From the IMG/VR virus record IMGVR_UViG_2778261543_000001: a DNA stretch of 20,062 nt. One strand, written 5' to 3'. This stretch comes from a virus. Its lineage: Duplodnaviria > Heunggongvirae > Uroviricota > Caudoviricetes. Of the stretch, positions 325 to 19,882 are shown piece by piece. Under the pieces are notes generated by a model. That model did no database searches. It had not been told where the DNA came from and saw only the letters and a program-made list of their open reading frames with translations. Position 1 is the stretch's first letter. Every line of letters starts with the position of its first letter. The position numbers and the translations under genes were made by a program.

Positions 325-612
325 ATGACTGAACAAGAAATGCCGAGATACCAGTGCCACAAAAAAGTTCGCGCCCTGAAGATTGGCTCTATAGAACATA
401 AGCCAAACCCAGATCAGCCTGGTAAGTCTGGCTCTTCTAGTTATGGGGCAATTATTCATCCGGATGATAAGAAATACGCAGCATTTGATGTTAGCGCGGA
501 ATATATCTGTAAGCACCGACCAATGCCTGGAGGCTATTACGTTGTCTATGAGGATGGATATGAATCATATTCTCCTGCTGAGGTATTTGAGTCTGGATAT
601 TCAAAATTATAG
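325..612 (+). CDS. Hypothetical small phage protein (95 aa)
   Basis: ATG at 325 lies 4 nt after the previous stop, suggesting coupled translation in the same operon. Contains two Cys and a Tyr/Gly-rich C-terminal half; function not recognisable. Confidence 0.6.
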   Translation: MTEQEMPRYQCHKKVRALKIGSIEHKPNPDQPGKSGSSSYGAIIHPDDKKYAAFDVSAEYICKHRPMPGGYYVVYEDGYESYSPAEVFESGYSKL

Positions 613-7219: not shown

Positions 7220-7825
7220 ATGAGCGTAATGATTTTTCAGGCTGGCGGAGATACCAAAATATGGGGACGCAAGCTGAAAACGAAAACCGTTGATCCTGAT
7301 GATGTAGCTGTGCACTTAGCAAATGGCTGGTATAAGCACCCTGACGATGTTCCTGATGATCCTCTTGTTGGTGATCAAATTGGGAGTGTTGGCGGAGGTG
7401 AAACTTCCCCAGTTGATATGGGCGAAGTGTCCGACGGTTATCACACTTTTAACGAGCTTTACGCTCACCGAGTGCGCCTCTTCTCATCGCTGATGCATGC
7501 TTACGCTGAGCTTTCGTGGTGGTCTCGCAAACACAGTGACGGTGAAGAGTGGGATGGCTGGATCATTGCTGGTATCACCACTCCAGAAGGCGAAATCACT
7601 TATCACCTACCTGTTGAAGAAATCGAGTTCCTTCCTGAAGGTACTGAGCTTGAGTTCGGGAAAGAGTGGGATGGTCATGAAGCAAATGATGTTCTTGGAC
7701 GACTCCTGAGTTTGCGTCCGGCTATTGCAGAGCCAGAGCCAGAGCCAGAGCCAGAAGAAAAACAGCGTAAAAAGCCTAGTCGAAAACCTAAGGCGGCAGC
7801 AGATGAACCTGACAACGAAGGGTGA
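7220..7825 (+). CDS. Acidic hypothetical protein (201 aa) with an (EP)4 repeat and a Lys/Arg-rich tail, inserted between coat and gp4
   Basis: ATG at 7220 with a GGAGA site 5 nt upstream. The ORF track begins this frame at 7040 inside the coat gene, but 7220 is the first start after the coat terminator. Protein is Asp/Glu-rich and ends ...[22 protein letters not shown].... Its 3' end overlaps the gp4 start by 23 nt. P22 has no gene here as far as I recall. Confidence 0.6.
7729..7752. repeat. Perfect tandem hexanucleotide repeat (AGAGCC)x4
   Basis: Read directly at 7729-7752. Encodes EPEPEPEP in the 7220 frame. The WLWLWLWL and GSGSGSGS stretches in antisense and alternate-frame ORFs are artefacts of this repeat. 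Confidence 0.95.
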
Positions 7826-8303: not shown

Positions 8304-9722
8304 ATGCCGATTCAGCAACTTCCGCTTATGAAAGGTGTCGGCAAAGACTTTCGAAACGCCGACTATATCGACTATCTGCCAGTGAATATGTTGGCTACAC
8401 CCAAAGAAATCCTTAACAGCAGCGGATATCTTCGCTCATTCCCGGGCATTGCCAAACGTTCCGACGTGAACGGTGTATCGCGCGGCGTCGAGTACAACAT
8501 GGCGCAGAATGCTGTTTATCGCGTGTGTGGCGGCAAGCTCTACAAAGGCGAAAGCGAAGTCGGTGACGTCGCCGGAAGTGGTCGTGTATCAATGGCGCAT
8601 GGTCGGACATCACAGGCAGTAGGCGTTAATGGTCAACTGGTCGAGTATCGCTATGATGGCACGGTTAAAACCGTCTCAAACTGGCCTACAGACAGCGGAT
8701 TCACGCAGTATGAGTTAGGTTCAGTCCGCGACATTACGCGCTTACGTGGGCGTTATGCGTGGTCAAAAGACGGCACTGATTCATGGTTTATCACTGACCT
8801 TGAAGACGAATCGCATCCTGACCGCTACAGCGCACAATATCGTGCTGAGTCTCAGCCTGACGGCATCATCGGCATCGGAACATGGCGAGACTTCATCGTC
8901 TGCTTTGGTTCATCGACGATTGAATATTTCTCCCTGACTGGCGCAACAACTGTTGGTGCTGCTTTGTATGTCGCACAGCCATCACTGATGGTGCAGAAAG
9001 GCATTGCCGGAACTTACTGCAAAACGCCATTCGCTGATTCGTATGCGTTTATCAGCAATCCGGCAACGGGTGCGCCGTCTGTATACATCATCGGATCCGG
9101 TCAGGTGTCACCAATCGCCAGCGCGAGCATTGAGAAAATTCTCCGCTCCTACACTGCTGATGAACTGGCTGATGGTGTGATGGAGTCTCTGCGATTTGAT
9201 GCGCATGAGCTGCTGATTATCCATCTTCCGCGCCATGTTCTGGTGTACGACGCATCTTCAAGCGCCAATGGTCCGCAATGGTGTGTACTGAAAACAGGCC
9301 TGTATGACGATGTGTATCGCGCTATCGACTTCATTTACGAAGGCAATCAGATAACGTGCGGCGATAAGCTGGAATCCGTGACCGGGAAATTGCAATTCGA
9401 TATCAGCAGCCAGTACGACAAGCAACAGGAACATCTGCTGTTTACTCCACTCTTCAAAGCAGATAACGCCAGAGTTTTCGACCTTGAGGTTGAATCGTCA
9501 ACTGGCGTTGCGCAGTACGCTGACCGCCTGTTCCTCTCTGCAACCACTGACGGCATCAATTACGGGCGTGAGCAGATGATTGAGCAGAATGAACCGTTCG
9601 TTTACGACAAACGCGTTTTGTGGAAGAAAGTAGGGCGCATCAGGAAAAACATTGGCTTCAAATTGCGCGTTATCACTAAGTCACCTGTCACTCTGTCTGG
9701 CTGCCAGATAAGGATTGAGTAA
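8304..9722 (+). CDS. 10: Tail hub / head-completion protein, P22 gp10 type (472 aa)
   Basis: 472 aa, the same as P22 gp10; it follows gp4 directly (TAA then ATG) with a GGGAG site. Assigned by size and conserved order. Confidence 0.85.
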
Positions 9723-10570
9723 TGGCTGATTCGAATCTTAATGTGCCGGTAATCATTCAGGCTACACGACTCGACACATCAGTCCTTCCGCGTAATATCT
9801 TCTCGCAGTCGTATCTGCTTTACGTTATCGCACAGGGAACTGATGTTGGTAACGTGGCTAACAAAGCCAACGAGGCCGGACAGGGCGCTTATGATGCACA
9901 GGTCAGGAACGATGAGCAGGATGTGATTCTGGTCGATCACGAAATTCGACTGGCATCGGCTGAAGCGAAGATACAGGACCACGAAACAAGGATCACTAAC
10001 GCAGAAGCGGCGATAGTCGGCCTTGATTCACGATTAACGACAGCAGAAAACGATATTGATTATCTGACTGATGAAGTTATCGCCATTCAAAACACGCTTT
10101 CAGACCATGAAACGCGCATCGATGCTCTGGAGTATGCCACTACTCGCAAGAAGTCAGAGGTTGTTTACTCTGGCGTATCTGTAACCATCCCGACAGCGCC
10201 GACCAACCTTGTTAGCCTGCTGAAAACGCTCACGCCGTCATCTGGCTCGTTGGCACCATTCTTCGACACTGTTAACAACAAGATGGTTGTGTTCAACGAG
10301 AACAAAACCTTGTTCTTCAAGCTGTCGATCGTCGGGACGTGGCCCAGCGGAACCGCCAACAGGTCAATGCAGCTAACCTTTTCCGGCTCTGTTCCTGACA
10401 CGTTGGTCAGCAGTCGTAATGCAGCGACAACAACCGATAACATCCTGTTAGCTACGTTCTTCAGCGTGGATAAAGACGGCTTTCTTGCCACAAATGGCAG
10501 CACGTTAACCATTCAGTCGAATGGTGCGGCGTTTACTGCCACAACCATCAAGATAATCGCGGAGCAGTAA
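9722..10570 (+). CDS. 26: Tail needle (cell-puncturing plug), P22 gp26 family, 282 aa with a C-terminal extension
   Basis: N-terminus [43 protein letters not shown]... matches the recalled gp10-binding N-terminal domain of P22 gp26. The centre carries repeated DHE(I/T)R heptad-type coiled-coil motifs. At 282 aa it is longer than P22's 233 aa, and the extra C-terminal part is Ser/Thr/Asn-rich, as in the knobbed needles of Sf6/HK620-type phages. Confidence 0.9.
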
Positions 10571-11729: not shown

Positions 11730-13136
11730 ATGGCTACTTGGCAAGGATCAAATGGCGGATTGTTAGCTGGTATCGGCGGCGTCAACTCAAACGCTCCGAG
11801 CGTAAATGACATCGGCAATACGCTTCAGCTTATCAGGCAGAACAATGATATTGAGCGTTCAGGCGCTAACAATGTTGGGCTGACTGCTTTGCAAGGTCTT
11901 TCAGGTATTGCAGGGGTGTTTCAGCAGGAAAAGCAGGCTCAGCGGCAGAAAGAATTTCAGCAGGCGTACGCTAATGCTTATGCGTCTGGTGATCGCGGTG
12001 CTTTGCGTCAGTTGGCTACTCAATATCCAGACCAGATTGAATCCGTTCGTAAAGGCATGGGATTCATTGATGAAGACCAGCGCAATTCTATCGGCACCTT
12101 AGCGGCTGGCGCACGCCTTGCGGCCTCGTCTCCAGAAGCAATGCAATCATGGCTGCAAAACAACGCCAATGAGCTGGCGCGCGTCGGTGTTGACCCTAAT
12201 AACGTTGCTCAGATGTATCAGCAGAATCCTTCAGGATTTGGTGAGTTTGTTGATCACCTTGGGATGGCTGCTCTTGGTCCGATTGATTACTTCAATGTTC
12301 AGGACAAGATGGCAGGTCGTGAGATTGACCGAGGCAGGCTGGCAGAGACAATCCGCAGCAATCAGGCTGGTGAAGCACTTCAGGCGAGAGGGCAAAACCT
12401 TTCCTATCAGTCAGCAATGACTGGGCACAATATCGCAGCACAACGCTTGGCTCTGGATCAGCAAGAGTTCGGGTTTAAGATGCAGCAAGCGCAGGAAAAG
12501 GCTCAGCAGTTGATTAGCGAAGCACCTAAGCTGTCAGTAAACATGGAAAAAGGCATCGAGACGGCTGTAAACAATGCCACAGCATCATCAAACTCAGCCA
12601 ATTCCATGAGTGCGCTTGCTCAACAGTTCAGAGCAGAAAAACCAACGACCGGTTTGTTCGGTAACGCACAGAACATGTTCGCAAAACTTACCGGAAGCGA
12701 TACGACATTGCGTGATTTGCGCATTCGCCAAAATGCCCTTGTTAACAGTCAGGTTCTTAAATTCCTACCTCCCGGCCCAGCAACGGATAAAGACGTTGAG
12801 ATTGTTCGACAGGGTGCGCCAACTGACATGGATAACCCTGAGACGGTCGCAAGATGGCTTGATGCAATGGCAAACCTTGAGCGACGAAACGCGCAGTTTA
12901 ATGAGTTTAAAGCTGAGTGGATGAGCGCGAATGGCAACCCTGGACAATCGCGTAATGGCGGTCAGATATTGGGGTTGGATGTTAAAAAAGGTGAATCATT
13001 GGGGAGTGCCGTTAAGCGGTATATGTCAATGAATACTGACGCAGCGCCAGCACAAGATTCGACACCTTCAGGAGAACCACGGAATCAGGTTGGATCATAT
13101 ACCTCAAAATCAGGCATTCAATTTACGGTGGAATGA
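11730..13136 (+). CDS. 20: Ejection protein, P22 gp20 type (468 aa)
   Basis: 468 aa (P22 gp20 about 471 aa), in the conserved 7-20-16 order, with an AAGGGG site. Its stop overlaps the gp16 start. Confidence 0.7.
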
Positions 13137-14977
13137 TGAAAGTAACTGCAAACGGTAAGACATTTACCTTTCCTGATGGTACGAGCACCGAAGATATTGG
13201 CACCGCCATTGATGAGTATTTTGCTGGTCAGGCTGTTCAGCAACAAACAGTTAATCAGGCCAATAATGCACCAACACGGGAAGAACCATCATTGATGCAA
13301 CAAGCTGGCGATTGGCTCACTGGTGGTCAAAGTGCAGGGCAAATTGCGGAACAGGCTGGTCGTGGTCTGGTAAACATACCATTTGACGTATTGCAGGGCG
13401 GCGCAAGTCTGATTAATGCAATCAGTCAGGGGCTTGGTGGACCCAAGGTTTTGGATGATGTTTATCGTCCAGTAGACAGACCGACAGACCCCTACGCTCA
13501 AGCTGGAGAAACAATTGGCGGGTATTTAGTTCCAGGAGTTGGAACGGCAGGAAGCATGGCTATTGGATCACTGGCAGAGGCCGCAAATCAGAAAGGTGAT
13601 TTCGCACAAAATGCAGCTAAAAATGCCGGAGTTAACCTTGCCGCTCAGGGTGTTCTTTCCGCAGCAGCAAAGGGAATAGGGCGTGGAATAACGGCTATAA
13701 AAGGTGATATTGCGCCAGAAGTGGCAAAGAAAATTGCCACATCAGAATCGATGGGCGTGACACCAATGACATCTGATGTTATCCCGCCGAAAAATGCTTT
13801 CACTCGCGGACTTACTCAGGATGCTGAGGGGGCTTTGCTCGGGACAGGCTCAAAGCGAGCGGAGCAATATGCAACGCGTAGTAAGCTGGTAAGCAATTAT
13901 TTTGACCGTTTTGGTGAGTACAACCCTGATGATGTGGTGAAATCTCTGACCACCACGTTAAGGGGACGGAAGGATGCCGCTGGCGCTGTTATCAATGACG
14001 TCACCAATAAAATGGGTAATGCCGCAGTTGATACCACAAATACCATGAATGCTCTGAATACAGCGATCGCAAGACAGGAACGGCTTGGGACGTCTGCCAA
14101 TCAAAGCCTGCTTACATCCTTGCGTAACCTACGTGAAGAATTAGCAAACCCTGCAACTGATTTGGATGTTACGTTTGATCTCTTGCGTCAGCACAGAACA
14201 GCATTTAGATCTAATGTTCAGGGAGATGCTATGGTCTTCCCCAACCAGGCAAAAGCAGCTACCAATATGGTAGAGAATGCAATGTCAAAAGACCTTCGTA
14301 ACGCAGTTGCAAAAAACCTCGGTGCATCAGACGCAGCAAAATACCTTAAAGCAAATTCCGATTATGCAAACGTTTATAATAAGGTTCTTAATAAAAACAT
14401 TGCTAACAAGCTCAACAAGGCAAGCAGTGAAGCCAGTCCTGAACTTATAAATACCGTTGTATTAAGCAGAAAACCATCTGACGTGAAACGAATCTGGAGC
14501 GCACTGGATGATAAAGGGAAAGATGCTATGCGTGCAGCTTACGTCAGCAAAATAGCGGAAAAGGCCGGTGACTCTCCAGCCAAGTTCATCACTGAAGTTA
14601 ATAAGCTGAAATCTCAGTCAGGTGGTGAAATTTACAACACTATTTTTTCTGGAAAGCACATGAAAGAGCTTGATGCTCTTCATGAAGTTCTACAGCAAAC
14701 AGCAAGGTCAGACACCGCAAATGTAGTAACTCAGACGGGGCAATCGCAAGCCAACAGGATAAGGACGATTGGCGCAACTGCGACTCTTGGCGTATCAATG
14801 GGGCTTGAGGCTGGTTTCGGTGCAATGATGCGCTTGTATGAATCCAAAGCAGCAAGGAATGCGCTCTTACGTCTGGCAAACACCAAAGCTGGAACGCCAG
14901 CTTATGAAAGAGCGCTAAATAATGCTGCAAATGCGATACGTCCTATACTTTCAAGCCAAATTACAGCAGAACAATAG
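13133..14977 (+). CDS. 16: Ejection protein, P22 gp16 type (614 aa)
   Basis: 614 aa (P22 gp16 about 609 aa). It is the last gene of the 7-20-16 block and starts in the ATGATG at 13133-13138, which contains the gp20 stop (TGA, 13134-13136). Confidence 0.7.
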
Positions 14978-15026
14978 ATAAATAATTAACTAAGCACATA
15001 ACTACTGACAGATAACCAACGCAACG

Positions 15027-15050
15027 ACCCAGCTTCGGCTGGTTTTTTTA
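15027..15050 (+). terminator. Rho-independent terminator between gp16 and the tailspike gene
   Basis: CCAGC-TTCG-GCTGG hairpin (15029-15042) followed by a run of seven T, about 50 nt after the gp16 stop. Confidence 0.6.
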
Positions 15051-15107
15051 TGCCCAAAATTCACCGTAGCCACGCTGCGGCGTTTCCTTGTATCTGGAGC
15101 AAATTAA

Positions 15108-17057
15108 ATGACAGACATTACAGCCAATGTTGTAATTGGGATGCCTTCGCAACTCTTCACTATGGCTCGTTCTTTTAAAGCCGTAGCCAATGGCAAAATT
15201 TATATCGGTAAAATTGACACTGACCCGGTAAATCCTGAAAACCAGATTCCGGTTTATATAGAGAACGAAGACGGTTCTCACGTTCCTGTTTCGCAACCAA
15301 TTATCATTAACGCTGCTGGTTATCCTGTATATAACGGGCAGATTGCCAAGTTCGTAACTGTGCAAGGCCATTCTATGGCTGTTTATGATGCATACGGTGC
15401 TCAGCAGTTTTATTTTCCGAATGTTCTGAAGTACGATCCTGACAGATTGCGACAGGATTTAGCGCTTCCAACAGGCGCTGAGCTTGTAGGCGTGCAACCA
15501 CAAGGAAATCTTTCGCAAGTCATTCAGTTTGTATCTCCAGAGCAGTTTGGCGCCATCGGAGATGGTACGGTTCATCCATTATCTGAGCGTTATGCGACTC
15601 TTGCAGCAGCGCAGGCTGTATACCCATTCGTAACATCTCTGACCCAGACAATTGACTGGGCAGCGTGTCAGGCGGCTGAGAACTATGCGCGTGGTAAAAC
15701 AGCGGTAAGATGCCCTTTCTACGCCAAGTATCATCTTGGCAACAATTATCTTGAGCTAAGCGAGAAAAGTAAATGGTATGGCAATGACAATCCCACTATA
15801 GATCGCCCATGCACCACTATCATACGAGAGGGAAATGCTGGCAGCTTCGGAAGAAATGCAATCGTCCGCGTTATGAGCTCTAGCGAAGCAGGAAGTTCGG
15901 ATGAATTTGTTCGCGGAGTCGTTTTCAAAGGTTTCTATTTATCTAGAAACCGCCCTCGTCGATTTAACAGCAAGTATGAAGGGTCAATAGGCTTTCATGT
16001 TAACTTTGCAATTAGAGCAGATATCGACGTGGCAATAAGCGGCTGTGAATATGGCCTTTTTGGCTATGGGTGCTGGGGACTGGTTGGTAGGGTTCGCGTG
16101 GATTCATGCCATAAATCTATTTGGCTGGATCCTGACACCGCAACTCCAGAGCATACCAACCCAGGCGGTTCAATAACGGCTCTTGATTTACGCGTAGAGG
16201 TGGATGCATGCGTCTACGGACCAGTGCTTCGACATGTGCAATATAGTAGAATTTCTGGATGGGTCGAAGGAATGCTTATTGATTCCGCAGTATACCCAAT
16301 CTATGACTACACCAACGAAACAGCTATAGCTATTACGGCATATGGATGCGATGGTTTAGATATAGAAAATCTAGGAATTGAAGCCTGGCAGGGAGTGATG
16401 GTTTACGCCAATTCCAGTACAGTATCCACTGGGATAAAATGGAATCAAGGAGCATTACTAACAAATACAACCGGTAAACACGGGCCATACCAGGCCATGG
16501 CAGCACTTACTGGCGCAACAGAATTGTTCACTTTACCATCGACTAACAACTCATATTTCTATGCAAAAAGTGGAGGCCTACTTAAGTTAAGAAATATGAC
16601 AGGAGATATGTCGACCGCTTCTTTCGCAAATACATTCCTTGTTACGGTTGATGCTGACTCTCGATTCTTAATGGAGAATACTGGCATTTACTTTGGAAGT
16701 AGTCGACTAATTGCCCCCGGCAATTGGGAGAATATTGAATTTATCAACGATAGATTCATGCAGAACTATATGGTGCCAGCTGGGTACTCATATGAAGGAC
16801 GCGGTATTTGTACTGCTAGCGCATGGTCAAACAAGACGATAAATGCCGGCGATGGTAGGGTTACACTTGATGCCCCTACTGGGTGGAAAATTATTGATTT
16901 TGTGGCCTACGTAATAACAAGCACCATATCACAAACTAGAAGCTACTCTCCTGTAGGAGTTGTATCCACATCAGATACGCGGATTATTCTGCAGACTGGT
17001 GTGGACACTACAGGTTTTTCTGTAACCTACAAACTAAGACTAAAGGTAATAAAGTAG
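15108..17057 (+). CDS. 9: Tailspike protein (649 aa): P22 gp9-like N-terminal head-binding domain fused to an unrecognised receptor-binding domain
   Basis: The first ~110 aa ([11 protein letters not shown]...[36 protein letters not shown]...[12 protein letters not shown]) match the recalled P22 gp9 head-binding domain. The rest has no resemblance to the P22 endorhamnosidase domain, though its Gly/Asn/Ser/Thr-rich repetitive composition would suit a beta-helix fold. TGGAG site upstream. Confidence 0.9.
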
Positions 17058-17061
17058 AGTG

Positions 17062-17086
17062 AAAGCCCCTTACGGGGCTTTTTTAT
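17062..17086. terminator. Terminator hairpin between the convergent tailspike and gtrC-like genes
   Basis: AAAGCCCC-TTAC-GGGGCTTT hairpin (17062-17081) with a T-run to 17086, 5 nt after the tailspike stop and overlapping the stop of the - strand gene. The T-tract follows only on the + strand, so termination of the minus-strand gtr transcript is less certain. Confidence 0.6.
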
Positions 17087-18603
17087 ATGCCTGTTTTTAT
17101 TCTGTGGTTGTAAACCATTATTATCATGCCATTGTAACTTAGAACTTCATCAGGACTGCCAATAGTAGCCTCGACTCCTTTCCTACATAAATCTATGTCT
17201 GCGCACTGATCTCCAGTATTGCCCTTCCTTAAAGCTATGAACTGTCGTTCAGGTTTTGATTCTACAAATTCATTTGTGTGCCAAAACTTCATTGTTTGAA
17301 CGCGGGCATCCTTGAAGTTGATAACCCCTGTTTTTTTATGAAAGTAAACAGGGGTTATATGTATGTCTCCGCCAGACAGCCAATTCACGCCCATAGACAT
17401 CCCCCAAAAACTACCATATCCGTAAGTAAGATCATGATGCTTAAGGAAGTCTATATATGAATTGACAGGGTTATCGTTAAGCTTGTAGCGAATATTCATT
17501 AATGAGTAGCCATAAATGCACGTAGCAAAACTTAACAGCAAAGGAATTACTAATAATATAGCTCGTTTAGAAGATGCTGCTACTGACAATAGCACGATCA
17601 CCATTGGGGCAATATTAAGATAAAATCTTTGATGGGGAGTTTGATCACCTATTATTGAAGATGAGTATATTCCTGCTATAGACATGATTGAAAATATTGC
17701 AATGTAGCGAGCCGCACCGCCTCGCTTTATGCATATGAACACGGCATATAAGCATGTAATAGACCATGTAAAAAATATTGCATACCTGAAATACTCGTTG
17801 CCTATATTCGTTATTGGCAACATCTTGGCTGTGATATCAACAGCAAGCCTGGCATTATCAAGCATAACATCAAAAGGTGCCAAGTGGAAAGAGTGAACAG
17901 GAAGACCTATAATCTTTTGAATTACATTTGAGAAAGCCAATGCAAAAAACACAAAGTATATAATGAAATTTCTTTTTGTGGTTTTCTCAAAAACGATGAT
18001 AGCACACTCAGTAATTATCATTGGTAGGAAAAAAGCCGCCAGAAGCCATGGATCAGACGCGCTCGCTAGCAGCGAAATCAAAGAGCATACAAACGGTATA
18101 AATATGTTTTTGCTTTTTAAGCTTAACACAAACAAAGAAAAAACTACGAACCCATACGCATTAGTAGAGTTATGCGAAAATGGGTGTGAGAAATAACCGT
18201 GTCTGTATAGGTCTGGAGAAACAAATGTTATGCATATTAAAGCAATTAAAGCTAGATAGTTACCTGAACATGACCTAACCATTTCTGTTACGCATGCTGT
18301 GATAACAAAAATAAATATTGCGCTTGATATCACTAATGGCAACAGACCATCATCACCGAGCAGTAAAAACAAAGCAAAGTTTACTGGATAAACTGTAAAA
18401 TACCAGTTATCAAATGTTGGTTGCCATTGAGTAAAAGAACTCCATCCACTGTCCAGGAATGCCCTCCAAACTATTGGGCTATTGGCGGCATCTGCATCCC
18501 CTGACCATAAGTAGCTGTGTCGCGATGTAAGATAAAGAGACACGCAAAAAGATGCGAGATATAAAAAACACCAAAAAGCTCTGCTATCAGATATCCTATT
18601 CAT
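17083..18603 (-). CDS. GtrC-like serotype-specific O-antigen glucosyltransferase (polytopic inner-membrane protein, 506 aa); specificity unknown
   Basis: Third gene of a gtrA-gtrB-gtrX arrangement, with its start overlapping the gtrB stop (ATGA). The protein is very hydrophobic with many predicted membrane spans and a ~130-aa hydrophilic C-terminal domain. AT-rich codon usage. I do not recognise it as a specific named Gtr type. Confidence 0.7.
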
Positions 18604-19523
18604 GATTTACTAACACCCTTTAATATATAACGAGGCCTATTTTTGGACTCAACATATATCCTGCCAATGTACTCACCAAGAACGCCAATGCCAATCAATT
18701 GAACCCCGCCAAGGAACAGAATAGAGACAAGCAGGGATGGATATCCACGCACAGCATTGCCGAAGGCCAGTGTGTCGATAATCATCCAAGCACCGTACAG
18801 AAACGCCACTCCAGCTACGAACAGGCCAATGTAAGTCCACATGCGCAACGGGAAAGTAGAGAAGCTTGTGATCCCCTCAAGTGCCAGGTTCCACAGTTTC
18901 CATCCATTAAATTTAGTACTGCCTGCCACTCGTTCTGCGCGTGCATACTCGACAACATCTGTGCGACCGCCAACCCAACTCAGCACACCTTTCATAAAAA
19001 GGTTGCGCTCTGGCATAAGCTTAATGTTTTCGACAACTTCACGGCTCATTAACCGGAAATCGCCAACGTTTTCTTCTATCTTTGGGTTGCTGATTTTGTT
19101 ATGAAGCTTATAGAACCACTCAGCAGATTTACGTTTTAGTCGGCTGTCAGTTGAGCGATCAGAGCGCTTAGCAAGAACCATATCCGCGCCGGCCTGCCAC
19201 TTCTCAATAAGATGAGGGATGACTTCAATCGGGTCCTGCAGGTCAACGTCAATTGGAATTACAGCCTCTCCGGTTGCATGTTCTAACCCTGCAAACAATG
19301 CTGGTTCTTTACCAAAGTTGCGTGTAAATGACAGTGGAACAACCAGCGGGTCTGAAACAGCCAGAGCATTAATAATTGACTCCGTAGCGTCTTTACTTCC
19401 GTCATTTATGAATACAATTTCCACTTCATATGGCTTCAACTCTTCGAATTCACGTACCGTTTTATAGAAAATTGGTATCGCTTCTTCTTCATTGAGGACA
19501 GGAACAACCAGAGATATCTTCAT
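18600..19523 (-). CDS. gtrB: Bactoprenol glucosyltransferase GtrB (GT2 family, 307 aa)
   Basis: N-terminal GT2 fold signature ([14 protein letters not shown]...INDGSKD...) with a DxD-type motif (PIDVDLQDP) and two C-terminal hydrophobic helices, as in GtrB. Flanked by gtrA and the gtrC-like gene with ATGA overlaps. Confidence 0.9.
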
Positions 19524-19882
19524 TTCGCATTCCTAAAGACAATGAGCTTTGAATAGACGAAACCGCACACCAGGCTGATGGCGGAGAAAGTGATAAGGGT
19601 GACCATTGGAGGAAGTGCACATCTATCAGCAGCCCATCCAATAGTTGCACTCAGTGTTCCCATGAACCCGACATATAACATGTAGCGCATCGTTGTAGTT
19701 GATGCTTTGAATGTGAATTTTGCATTCGCGAAGAAGCTAAAACTCACAGCCACAACAAAACCTGCGAAGTTTGCCAGAGCCTGATTGGTATGCGCGGCAT
19801 AGATACATACACCAAAAACCACCCAGTGTATAAGTGTGTTCAGCACGCCAATCGAGGTGTACTTTGCAAATAGCTTTAACAT
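19520..19882 (-). CDS. gtrA: GtrA, small membrane protein (flippase for undecaprenyl-phosphate glucose), 120 aa
   Basis: 120 aa with four hydrophobic segments, first gene of the operon, typical GtrA size and position. Confidence 0.85.

What the first reader, a model, noticed from the sequence alone, without database searches (positions are those of the whole stretch)
14978..15107. No immI region between gp16 and the tailspike
In P22 the interval between gene 16 and gene 9 holds about 2.5 kb with sieA, mnt, arc and ant. Here the two genes are separated by only 130 bp containing a terminator. This phage therefore lacks the antirepressor immunity system and the SieA superinfection exclusion at this site, resembling Sf6-type phages in layout while carrying P22-type terminases.
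Basis: partly seen in the sequence, partly recalled or inferred. Interest (0 to 1): 0.35.

Follow-up and report, generated by a model that had tools for sequence, protein, structure and literature searches.

The report
P22-like prophage lacking the immI module
In this P22-like E. coli prophage the accessory "immunity I / ant moron" cassette (sieA, mnt, arc, ant) between the DNA-ejection gene 16 and the tailspike gene is missing, and only the last 16 bases of ant and its terminator remain; this is an ordinary, already documented kind of variation in these phages.

Summary
Gene 16 stops at 14977, the tailspike gene starts at 15108, and the 130-bp spacer carries a canonical intrinsic terminator (15029-15049). 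P22 has 2,890 bp here, holding sieA, ORF59, mnt, arc and ant. No homologue of SieA, Mnt, Arc or Ant is found anywhere in the 20-kb window. The window is a whole draft contig, so the rest of the prophage cannot be inspected.

The spacer is not Sf6-like in sequence. From 14993 onward it is the ant-to-gene-9 spacer of immI-bearing phages:
- the last 16 nt of ant (AHNY*, preceded by an in-frame stop);
- the tANT terminator;
- the conserved gene-9 leader.

It is therefore most likely a deletion scar. HK620 carries a comparable annotated "remnant of ant", with a different breakpoint.

The same junction occurs in 18 complete E. coli genomes and 3 IMG/VR contigs. There it is combined with both terminase types and several tailspikes, so it is real and heritable.

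Villafane et al. 2008 already describe this "ant moron" as highly variable, from absent (Sf6, APSE, phiSG1) to degraded (HK620). Low interest; already known.

The parts
13133..14977 (+). Gene 16 homologue (DNA ejection/transfer protein, 614 aa); stop codon TAG at 14975-14977.
   Evidence: 74% aa identity to P22 gp16 over 607 aa. phrog_770 'DNA transfer protein', E 4e-280. PF26808 Phage_P22_gp16. The same 3' allele, at 96-98% nt identity, occurs in about 328 complete E. coli genomes, most of which carry an ant moron downstream.
14978..14992 (.). 15-nt AT-rich stretch (ATAAATAATTAACTA) of ambiguous origin.
   Evidence: It aligns about equally well with two sequences. One is the gene-16-proximal edge of the ant moron in E. 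coli strain 41 and Ecol_545, including CTA, the minus-strand stop codon of the sieA-position gene. The other is ant sequence further upstream, with a 4-nt gap. The two cannot be told apart.
14993..15008 (+). Remnant of the 3' end of the antirepressor gene ant. AGCACATAACTACTGA encodes ..AHNY*, and an in-frame TAA lies just upstream at 14991-14993.
   Evidence: 15 of 16 nt are identical to the end of ant in E. coli ST12468 and strain 41 (SVHNY*); compare P22 SLHRY*. Megablast matches of ant-bearing E. coli prophages start at window 14993 or 14996.
15029..15049 (+). tANT intrinsic terminator: stem 15029-15033 / 15038-15042, UUCG loop, then T7 at 15043-15049.
   Evidence: Found by the terminator scan. 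It is homologous to the terminator annotated after ant in HK620 ('tANT, associated with remnant of P22 ant gene') and in P22, epsilon34 and Emek records. A G->T change shortens the stem: -8.2 kcal/mol here against -14.1 in P22.
15056..15080 (+). Conserved gene-9 leader element AAAATTCACCGTAGCCACGCTGCGG containing a 7-bp hairpin (15064-15080).
   Evidence: Scan hit; -10.4 kcal/mol. Conserved in P22, HK620 and E. coli prophages. It is present twice in P22, flanking a 110-bp insert that holds a second terminator, and twice in IMG/VR L011.
15096..15110 (+). Shine-Dalgarno GGAG (15096-15099), an 8-nt spacer and the ATG of the tailspike gene.
   Evidence: Read directly from the sequence. GGAGCAAATTAAATG is conserved in P22, Sf6, HK620 and E. 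coli prophages.
15108..17057 (+). Tailspike gene (gene 9 homologue, 649 aa). The head-binding domain is conserved and the receptor-binding part is divergent.
   Evidence: PF09008 Head_binding at aa 1-113, E 5e-66. 76% aa identity to P22 gp9 and 90% to Sf6 gp14 over the first 113-118 aa only.

Best explanation
The 130-bp interval is an empty 'ant moron' (immI + sieA) site produced by deletion of the whole cassette from an immI-bearing P22-like ancestor. What remains is about 15 nt next to gene 16, the last 16 nt of ant, the tANT terminator, and the conserved leader, SD and start of gene 9.

The functional consequences below are inferred, not shown:
- The prophage makes no P22-type antirepressor, and so needs no Mnt/Arc/sar control of one.
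- It has no SieA exclusion encoded at this locus.
- The tailspike gene is transcribed only as the distal end of the late operon. Late-antiterminator-modified RNA polymerase coming from P-late reads through the now weakened tANT hairpin.

The scar is old enough to have spread by recombination. The same junction sits in prophages with P22-type or Sf6/PBSX-type terminases and with at least four different tailspike receptor domains.
For: Shown:
- Exact coordinates and the terminator.
- P22 has 2,890 bp with sieA-ORF59-mnt-arc-ant at this position. E. coli prophages carrying the same gene-16 3' allele (98% nt identity) have a 2,800-bp moron there: strain 41, containing a sieA-position gene, hkcC-like genes, two Arc-family genes and ant.
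- Window 14993-15107 aligns base for base with the ant 3' end, tANT and gene-9 leader of P22, ST12468, strain 41 and HK620. The alignment score against the strain 41 right edge is 22, with 0 of 2000 shuffles reaching it.
- The remnant keeps ant's last codons, HNY*, behind an in-frame stop.
- HK620's curated annotation calls the homologous element a remnant of ant. It keeps about 24 nt of ant rather than 16, so that was an independent deletion.
- The flanks of the empty site are nested within the diversity of ant-bearing prophages. 1175 of 5426 complete E. coli genomes match the region, and only about 18 have the direct junction.
- The junction is also present in 3 IMG/VR contigs.
- No SieA, Mnt, Arc or Ant homologue occurs in the window, and no Rfam RNA in 14000-16000.
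- No promoter-like site occurs in 14700-15400.

Literature: Villafane et al. 2008 (PMC2629481) describe the ant moron as rapidly changing, absent in Sf6, APSE-1/2 and phiSG1 and degraded in HK620 and Scho1. Phage L has only 836 bp here (PMC8022706).
Against: - The direction of the event (loss versus ancestral emptiness) is inferred from a 16-nt remnant and from nesting among relatives. No phylogeny was built.
- The 15 nt at 14978-14992 cannot be assigned to either edge.
- No significant flanking direct repeat or clean microhomology that would explain the deletion was found. For the left versus right edge of the moron in strain 41, 767 of 2000 shuffles score at least as well.
- Read-through of tANT by antiterminated polymerase is carried over from P22 genetics, as cited in PMC2629481. 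It was not tested here, and the late antiterminator gene lies outside the window.
Confidence: 0.8

Rival explanations
1. Ancestral empty site. The 130-bp spacer is the state before any moron was inserted, as assumed for Sf6 and APSE. Morons then inserted between 14992 and 14993, and the ant reading frame simply runs into pre-existing spacer sequence until the first stop codon.
For: Sf6 and APSE phages also have gene 16 directly followed by the tailspike gene (PMC2629481). SD-proximal spacer sequence is shared by all these phages. Casjens-style 'boundary sequences' are annotated at module junctions in Sf6 and CUS-3.
Against: The Sf6 spacer shares only about the last 25 nt with this one. tANT is a terminator that serves the ant transcript in P22. 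The mnt-only moron of Ecol_545 has a completely different spacer without tANT, so tANT travels with ant and not with gene 9. HK620 retains a longer stretch of ant, about 24 nt, upstream of the same tANT. The empty junction is rare, about 18 of 1175 genomes, and its flanks are 96-98% identical to those of ant-bearing prophages.
Confidence: 0.1
2. Assembly artefact. The draft contig collapsed or mis-joined across the immI region.
For: The window is a 20,062-bp contig of a draft assembly, GCA_002229875.1.
Against: The same 130/131-bp junction is contiguous in 16-18 closed E. coli chromosomes and in 3 IMG/VR contigs. Both flanking reading frames are intact.
Confidence: 0.01
3. immI is present but relocated. 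The prophage still encodes an antirepressor-based secondary immunity system elsewhere, on another contig.
For: The window stops 78 bp upstream of ORF80 and 180 bp beyond gtrA, so all early genes are unseen. Relatives with the same junction carry a KilAC/Rha-domain 'antirepressor' in the nin region, and some have a Rha-family gene before ORF80.
Against: Those proteins carry the Pfam domains ANT/KilAC (PF03374) and Phage_pRha, not the P22_AR_N and P22_AR_C domains of P22 Ant. They sit inside the early-right operon with no adjacent Arc/Mnt-family genes. No Arc-family, P22-type Ant or SieA gene is annotated anywhere in the complete JKHS016 prophage. No P22-like phage is reported with immI at another position (PMC2629481).
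Confidence: 0.07

Closest known systems
Phage HK620 gene 16-gene 9 region (AF335538; Clark et al. 2001 annotation)
   Same: It carries the same tANT terminator, a short 3' remnant of ant and the same gene-9 leader directly upstream of the tailspike gene. There is no functional ant, arc or mnt.
   Different: HK620 still has 1,165 bp here, with hkcB, hkcC, a possible hkcD and a tMNT remnant. Its ant remnant is longer, about 24 nt against 16, so the breakpoint differs. The window has nothing but the scar.
Phage Sf6 gene 13-gene 14 junction (AF547987); also APSE-1/2 and phiSG1, the 'ant moron absent' class of Villafane et al. 2008
   Same: The gene 16 homologue is followed directly by the tailspike gene with no intervening ORF: 164 bp in Sf6, 130 bp here. 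The window also shares the Sf6-type tail-needle knob.
   Different: The spacer sequences are unrelated except for the SD and start region, and Sf6 has no tANT or ant remnant. Sf6 has a different terminase type, whereas the window has P22-type gp3 and gp2.
Phage P22 immI region / ant moron (sieA, hkcC/ORF59, mnt, arc, ant, sar; Sauer et al. 1983)
   Same: The flanking genes 16 and 9 are the same, as is the ant-distal spacer, both in sequence and in order.
   Different: All five genes (about 2.8 kb) are missing here. P22 additionally has a 110-bp repeat-flanked insert with a second terminator between tANT and gene 9.
Phage L / ST64T / E. coli Ecol_545 mnt-only morons
   Same: These are reduced ant morons that lack ant, arc and sieA (PMC8022706).
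   Different: They retain an mnt-like gene and one more ORF, in 836-957 bp. Their gene-9-proximal spacer has no tANT.

Membership tests
P22-like (Lederbergvirus) late operon | Syntenic virion gene order 3-2-1-8-5-(orf)-4-10-26-14-7-20-16-9 | tested here: met
   The ORF map matches the P22 annotation gene by gene. Pfam families for gp7, gp20, gp14, the needle, gp16 and the tailspike head-binding domain are found. Nucleotide identity is 81% to P22 and 95-96% to E. coli Lederbergviruses.
P22 immI (immunity I) region | Antirepressor gene ant (P22_AR_N + P22_AR_C domains) between genes 16 and 9 | tested here: not met
   Only 130 bp lie between the genes. tblastn with P22 and E. coli Ant finds nothing in the window (E >= 0.26). 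Only the last 16 nt of ant survive.
P22 immI (immunity I) region | Arc and Mnt repressor genes with divergent Pant/Pmnt promoters, and sar antisense RNA | tested here: not met
   There are no Arc or Mnt homologues; the single Mnt hit lies in frame inside gene 20. No promoter-like site is found in 14700-15400, and no Rfam family in 14000-16000.
SieA superinfection exclusion | sieA homologue on the minus strand immediately downstream of gene 16 | tested here: not met
   tblastn with P22 and E. coli SieA gives E >= 2 across the whole window. At most the stop codon of the sieA-position gene may remain, at 14990-14992, and this is ambiguous.
'Ant moron absent' class (Sf6/APSE type, Villafane et al. 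2008) | No ORF between the gene 16 and gene 9 homologues | tested here: met
   The spacer is 130 bp and contains no complete ORF. One minus-strand ORF (15048-15371, 107 aa) begins in the spacer and runs antisense into the tailspike gene; it was not tested further. Sf6 has a 164-bp spacer.
'Ant moron absent' class (Sf6/APSE type, Villafane et al. 2008) | Spacer homologous to the Sf6 spacer (common origin of the empty site) | tested here: not met
   The alignment shows similarity only in about the last 25 nt, covering the SD and start codon.
Degraded ant moron with tANT remnant (HK620 type) | tANT terminator and a 3' fragment of ant retained upstream of gene 9 | tested here: met
   The sequence is near-identical to the HK620 element annotated 'tANT, associated with remnant of P22 ant gene'.
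Rho-independent (intrinsic) terminator | G+C-rich stem-loop immediately followed by a U tract | tested here: met
   A 5-bp stem (4 G-C pairs), a UUCG loop and U7 at 15029-15049; -8.2 kcal/mol. Termination activity itself cannot be tested with these tools.

The most novel reading that the evidence does not exclude
The retained tANT hairpin and the conserved, sometimes duplicated leader hairpin (15056-15080) may not be inert debris. They could form a selected cis-regulatory cassette that sets tailspike dosage relative to the other late proteins, which would explain why independent deletions (this one and HK620's) all stop just upstream of tANT instead of removing it.
Probability: 0.12. Interest if true: 0.3.

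Novelty: already known. Interest (0 to 1): 0.1.

Why it matters
This matters little beyond annotation. It says that this prophage, at this locus, has neither antirepressor-based secondary immunity nor SieA exclusion, and that tailspike expression should depend only on the late promoter. It adds one more clean example of the high turnover of the 'ant moron' in P22-like phages. This example has both deletion edges essentially visible, and the scar was inherited across mosaically different prophages. That is useful for prophage typing, but it opens no new question.

Tried and rejected
1. Mnt-like hit. tblastn with P22 Mnt hit window 12288-12482 (E 7e-4). The hit is in the reading frame of gene 20 and was found with SEG off, so I treat it as compositional, not as a relocated mnt.
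2. Flanking direct repeats as the deletion mechanism. The left and right edges of the moron in strain 41, ST12468 and P22 were aligned against each other. Scores are no better than shuffles (767, 1881 and 576 of 2000 shuffles at least as good). Only an ATAACTA(C)CTGA microhomology exists in strain 41, and the window keeps both TAACTA copies, so a simple microhomology deletion from a strain-41-like parent does not reproduce the junction.
3. Origin of 14978-14992. This could not be decided between the left edge of the moron and more of ant.
4. Source genome. No complete E. coli genome covers more than 53% of the right half of the window. The exact-junction pattern found nothing in the one-genome-per-species collection. 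The window is an entire draft contig, so the rest of this particular prophage could not be examined.
5. Known structured RNAs. The Rfam scan of 14000-16000 found no match at E <= 1. The fold of the whole spacer is not unusually stable (z = -1.3).
6. APC_JM3.2, IME10 and Dewey, the closest isolated phages. They also lack an ant moron, but with an unrelated 278-bp spacer and a much longer gene in the gene-16 position (911 aa in APC_JM3.2), so they are a different kind of empty site.

Full report
**What the window is.** The 20,062-bp window is the complete contig NLNW01000079.1 of the draft assembly GCA_002229875.1. It carries the late region of a P22-like (Lederbergvirus) prophage, in this order:
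- ORF80/DUF2560 (79-321);
- small and large terminase (825-1313 and 1291-2790);
- portal, scaffold and coat;
- a 201-aa ORF;
- gp4, gp10, the tail needle, gp14, gp7 and gp20;
- gp16 (13133-14977);
- the tailspike gene (15108-17057);
- a gtrA-gtrB-gtrC-like O-antigen modification cluster on the minus strand (17083-19882).

The closest isolated phages are E. coli Lederbergviruses (APC_JM3.2, Dewey, IME10) at 95-96% nt identity over about 55% of the window. P22 itself is 81% identical over 48%.

**The observation.** It is exact. Gene 16 ends with TAG at 14975-14977, the tailspike ATG is at 15108, and the spacer is 130 bp. It contains a textbook intrinsic terminator: CCAGC-UUCG-GCUGG followed by U7, at 15029-15049 (-8.2 kcal/mol). 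In AF217253 the 16-to-9 interval holds sieA, ORF59, mnt, arc and ant. It measures 2,890 bp rather than about 2.5 kb.

**What the 130 bp are made of.** Alignments show that window 14993-15107 is colinear and nearly identical with the region downstream of ant in four references: P22, two ant-bearing E. coli prophages (ST12468 and strain 41), and HK620. This region has four parts:
- the last 16 nt of the ant reading frame, AGCACATAACTACTGA. This encodes ..AHNY*, compared with SVHNY* in E. coli ant and SLHRY* in P22, and is preceded here by an in-frame TAA;
- the tANT terminator;
- a conserved leader with a second hairpin (15064-15080);
- the SD (GGAG, 15096-15099) and the start codon.

Against the right edge of the strain 41 moron, the alignment score is 22, and 0 of 2000 shuffles reach it. 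Megablast hits from ant-bearing E. coli prophages begin at window 14993 or 14996, with an antirepressor gene annotated immediately upstream.

P22 differs in carrying a 110-bp insert with a second terminator, bracketed by two copies of AAAATTCACCGTAGCCAYGCT. The window has one copy, at 15056.

The remaining 15 nt (14978-14992) are AT-rich. They align about equally well with the gene-16-proximal edge of the moron in strain 41 and Ecol_545, including the minus-strand stop codon CTA, or with slightly more of ant. I leave their origin open.

**Comparison with Sf6 and HK620.** Sf6 has the same layout, with gene 13 followed by gene 14 after 164 bp. Its spacer, however, shares only the SD and start region with this one.

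HK620's curated record annotates the homologous terminator as 'tANT, associated with remnant of P22 ant gene'. It also annotates a tMNT remnant, and the 1,165-bp interval still contains hkcB and hkcC. HK620 keeps about 24 nt of ant against 16 here, so the two deletions are independent.

The mnt-only moron of Ecol_545 (957 bp) has a different gene-9-proximal spacer without tANT. tANT therefore travels with ant rather than with gene 9.

**Direction of the change.** The gene 16 3' allele of the window occurs at 96-98% identity in about 328 complete E. coli genomes. In most of them it is followed by a moron. In strain 41, for example, that moron is 2,800 bp and holds a sieA-position gene, two small ORFs, two Arc-family genes and ant.

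Of the 1,175 genomes that match the region, only 16 have the contiguous junction at 80% coverage or more, plus 2 at lower coverage. The junction also occurs in 3 IMG/VR contigs at 95-96% identity.

It is combined with different modules in different genomes:
- P22-type terminases in the window and in strain 2018-01-1CC;
- Sf6/PBSX-type terminases in JKHS016;
- at least four different tailspike receptor domains.

The best reading is therefore a single deletion of the cassette from an ant-bearing ancestor, with the scar then passed around by recombination. The evidence for this is a rare state nested among ant-bearing relatives, the retained ant codons and ant's own terminator. I found no significant flanking repeat to explain the deletion mechanistically.

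**Are immI genes elsewhere?** Within the window, no. tblastn with P22 and E. coli SieA, ORF59, Mnt, Arc and Ant, and with the KilAC and Rha proteins of relatives, gives nothing credible. The one hit at E 7e-4, for Mnt, is in frame within gene 20. Beyond the window I cannot tell, because the contig ends.

In a complete prophage with the same junction (JKHS016) no Arc/Mnt-family, P22-type Ant or SieA gene is annotated. It does have sieB and a nin-region protein with ANT/KilAC and Rha domains. That protein is a different family from P22 Ant, which has P22_AR_N and P22_AR_C domains.

**How it most likely works (inferred).** With Pant and Pmnt gone, and no promoter-like site in 14700-15400, the tailspike gene can only be reached by late-operon transcription. 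In P22 the late antiterminator lets polymerase pass the terminators in this region. Villafane et al. note that the ant moron is thought to modulate how much late transcription reaches the tailspike gene, and that phages with a degraded or absent moron, such as HK620 and Sf6, may lack this effect (PMC2629481).

Here a G->T change has weakened the tANT stem (-8.2 against -14.1 kcal/mol). That fits either relaxed constraint or easier read-through. At this locus the prophage should provide neither antirepressor-based immunity functions nor SieA exclusion.

**Novelty.** The phenomenon is documented. Villafane et al. 2008 (PMC2629481) named this interval the 'ant moron'. They found ten types in sixteen genomes, listed it as absent in Sf6, APSE-1/2 and phiSG1, and read HK620 and Scho1 as degraded former immI regions. 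Phage L has 836 bp with only an mnt-like gene (PMC8022706).

The window adds a clean, fully emptied scar variant that no phage record in the INPHARED collection shows contiguously but that recurs in E. coli prophages. This is a routine annotation-level result: already known in kind, and of low interest.

Noticed in passing
window 7220-7825 (+): A 201-aa ORF sits between the coat gene and gene 4, where P22 has the 69-aa ORF69. Its N-terminus (aa 1-44) resembles the short ORF69-position family phrog_1175, and aa 68-165 are a Pfam WDGH domain (PF25311, E 1e-39). This looks like a second variable, expanded site inside the morphogenetic cluster, although Villafane et al. 2008 state that no morons occur elsewhere in that cluster.
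   Followed up: partly
window 325-612 (+), and non-coding 613-824: A 95-aa ORF lies between ORF80/DUF2560 and the small terminase gene. It matches only positions 1-94 of the 182-position family phrog_11049, so it is probably a truncated gene. It is followed by 212 bp without an ORF. P22 has only 204 bp between ORF80 and gene 3.
   Followed up: partly
window 9722-10570 (+): The tail needle (gp26 homologue, 282 aa) carries the Sf6-type knob domain (PF16532, E 2e-108; 86% aa identity to Sf6 gp9). The terminases are P22-type (gp3 100% and gp2 93% aa identity to P22). This is a mosaic of P22-type and Sf6-type virion modules within one late operon.
   Followed up: partly
window 15056-15080 (+); L001 (P22) 19767 and 19877; L011: The conserved 21-25-nt leader element AAAATTCACCGTAGCCAYGCT(GCGG), with a 7-bp hairpin (-10.4 kcal/mol), lies just upstream of the tailspike SD. 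It is duplicated in P22 around a 110-bp insert that holds a second terminator, and it is also duplicated in one IMG/VR contig. Its function is unknown.
   Followed up: partly
window 15462-17057 (+) and 17083-18603 (-): The receptor-binding part of the tailspike (beyond about aa 118) has no close match in the phage collection or in complete E. coli genomes at megablast level. The adjacent 506-aa gtrC-position protein has no Pfam hit. Together with gtrA and gtrB they probably form a serotype-specific pair of O-antigen recognition and modification functions.
   Followed up: no
window 15048-15371 (-): A 107-aa ATG-initiated ORF runs antisense to the 5' end of the tailspike gene and starts inside the spacer. 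It is probably spurious, since it lies over the highly conserved head-binding-domain coding sequence, but it was not tested.
   Followed up: no
L002 (phage APC_JM3.2) 17100-20113: The closest isolated phages (APC_JM3.2 and relatives) have a much longer gene in the gene-16 position (911 aa in APC_JM3.2, against 614 aa here). It is followed by an unrelated 278-bp spacer and no ant moron, which makes a third, independent kind of empty site.
   Followed up: partly
L010 (E. coli JKHS016) 29755-32357: The prophage with the same empty junction in JKHS016 has a portal-to-coat deletion: the portal is truncated at its C-terminus and fused next to an N-terminally truncated coat gene. It is therefore defective, and at least some carriers of the scar are decaying prophages.
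   Followed up: no
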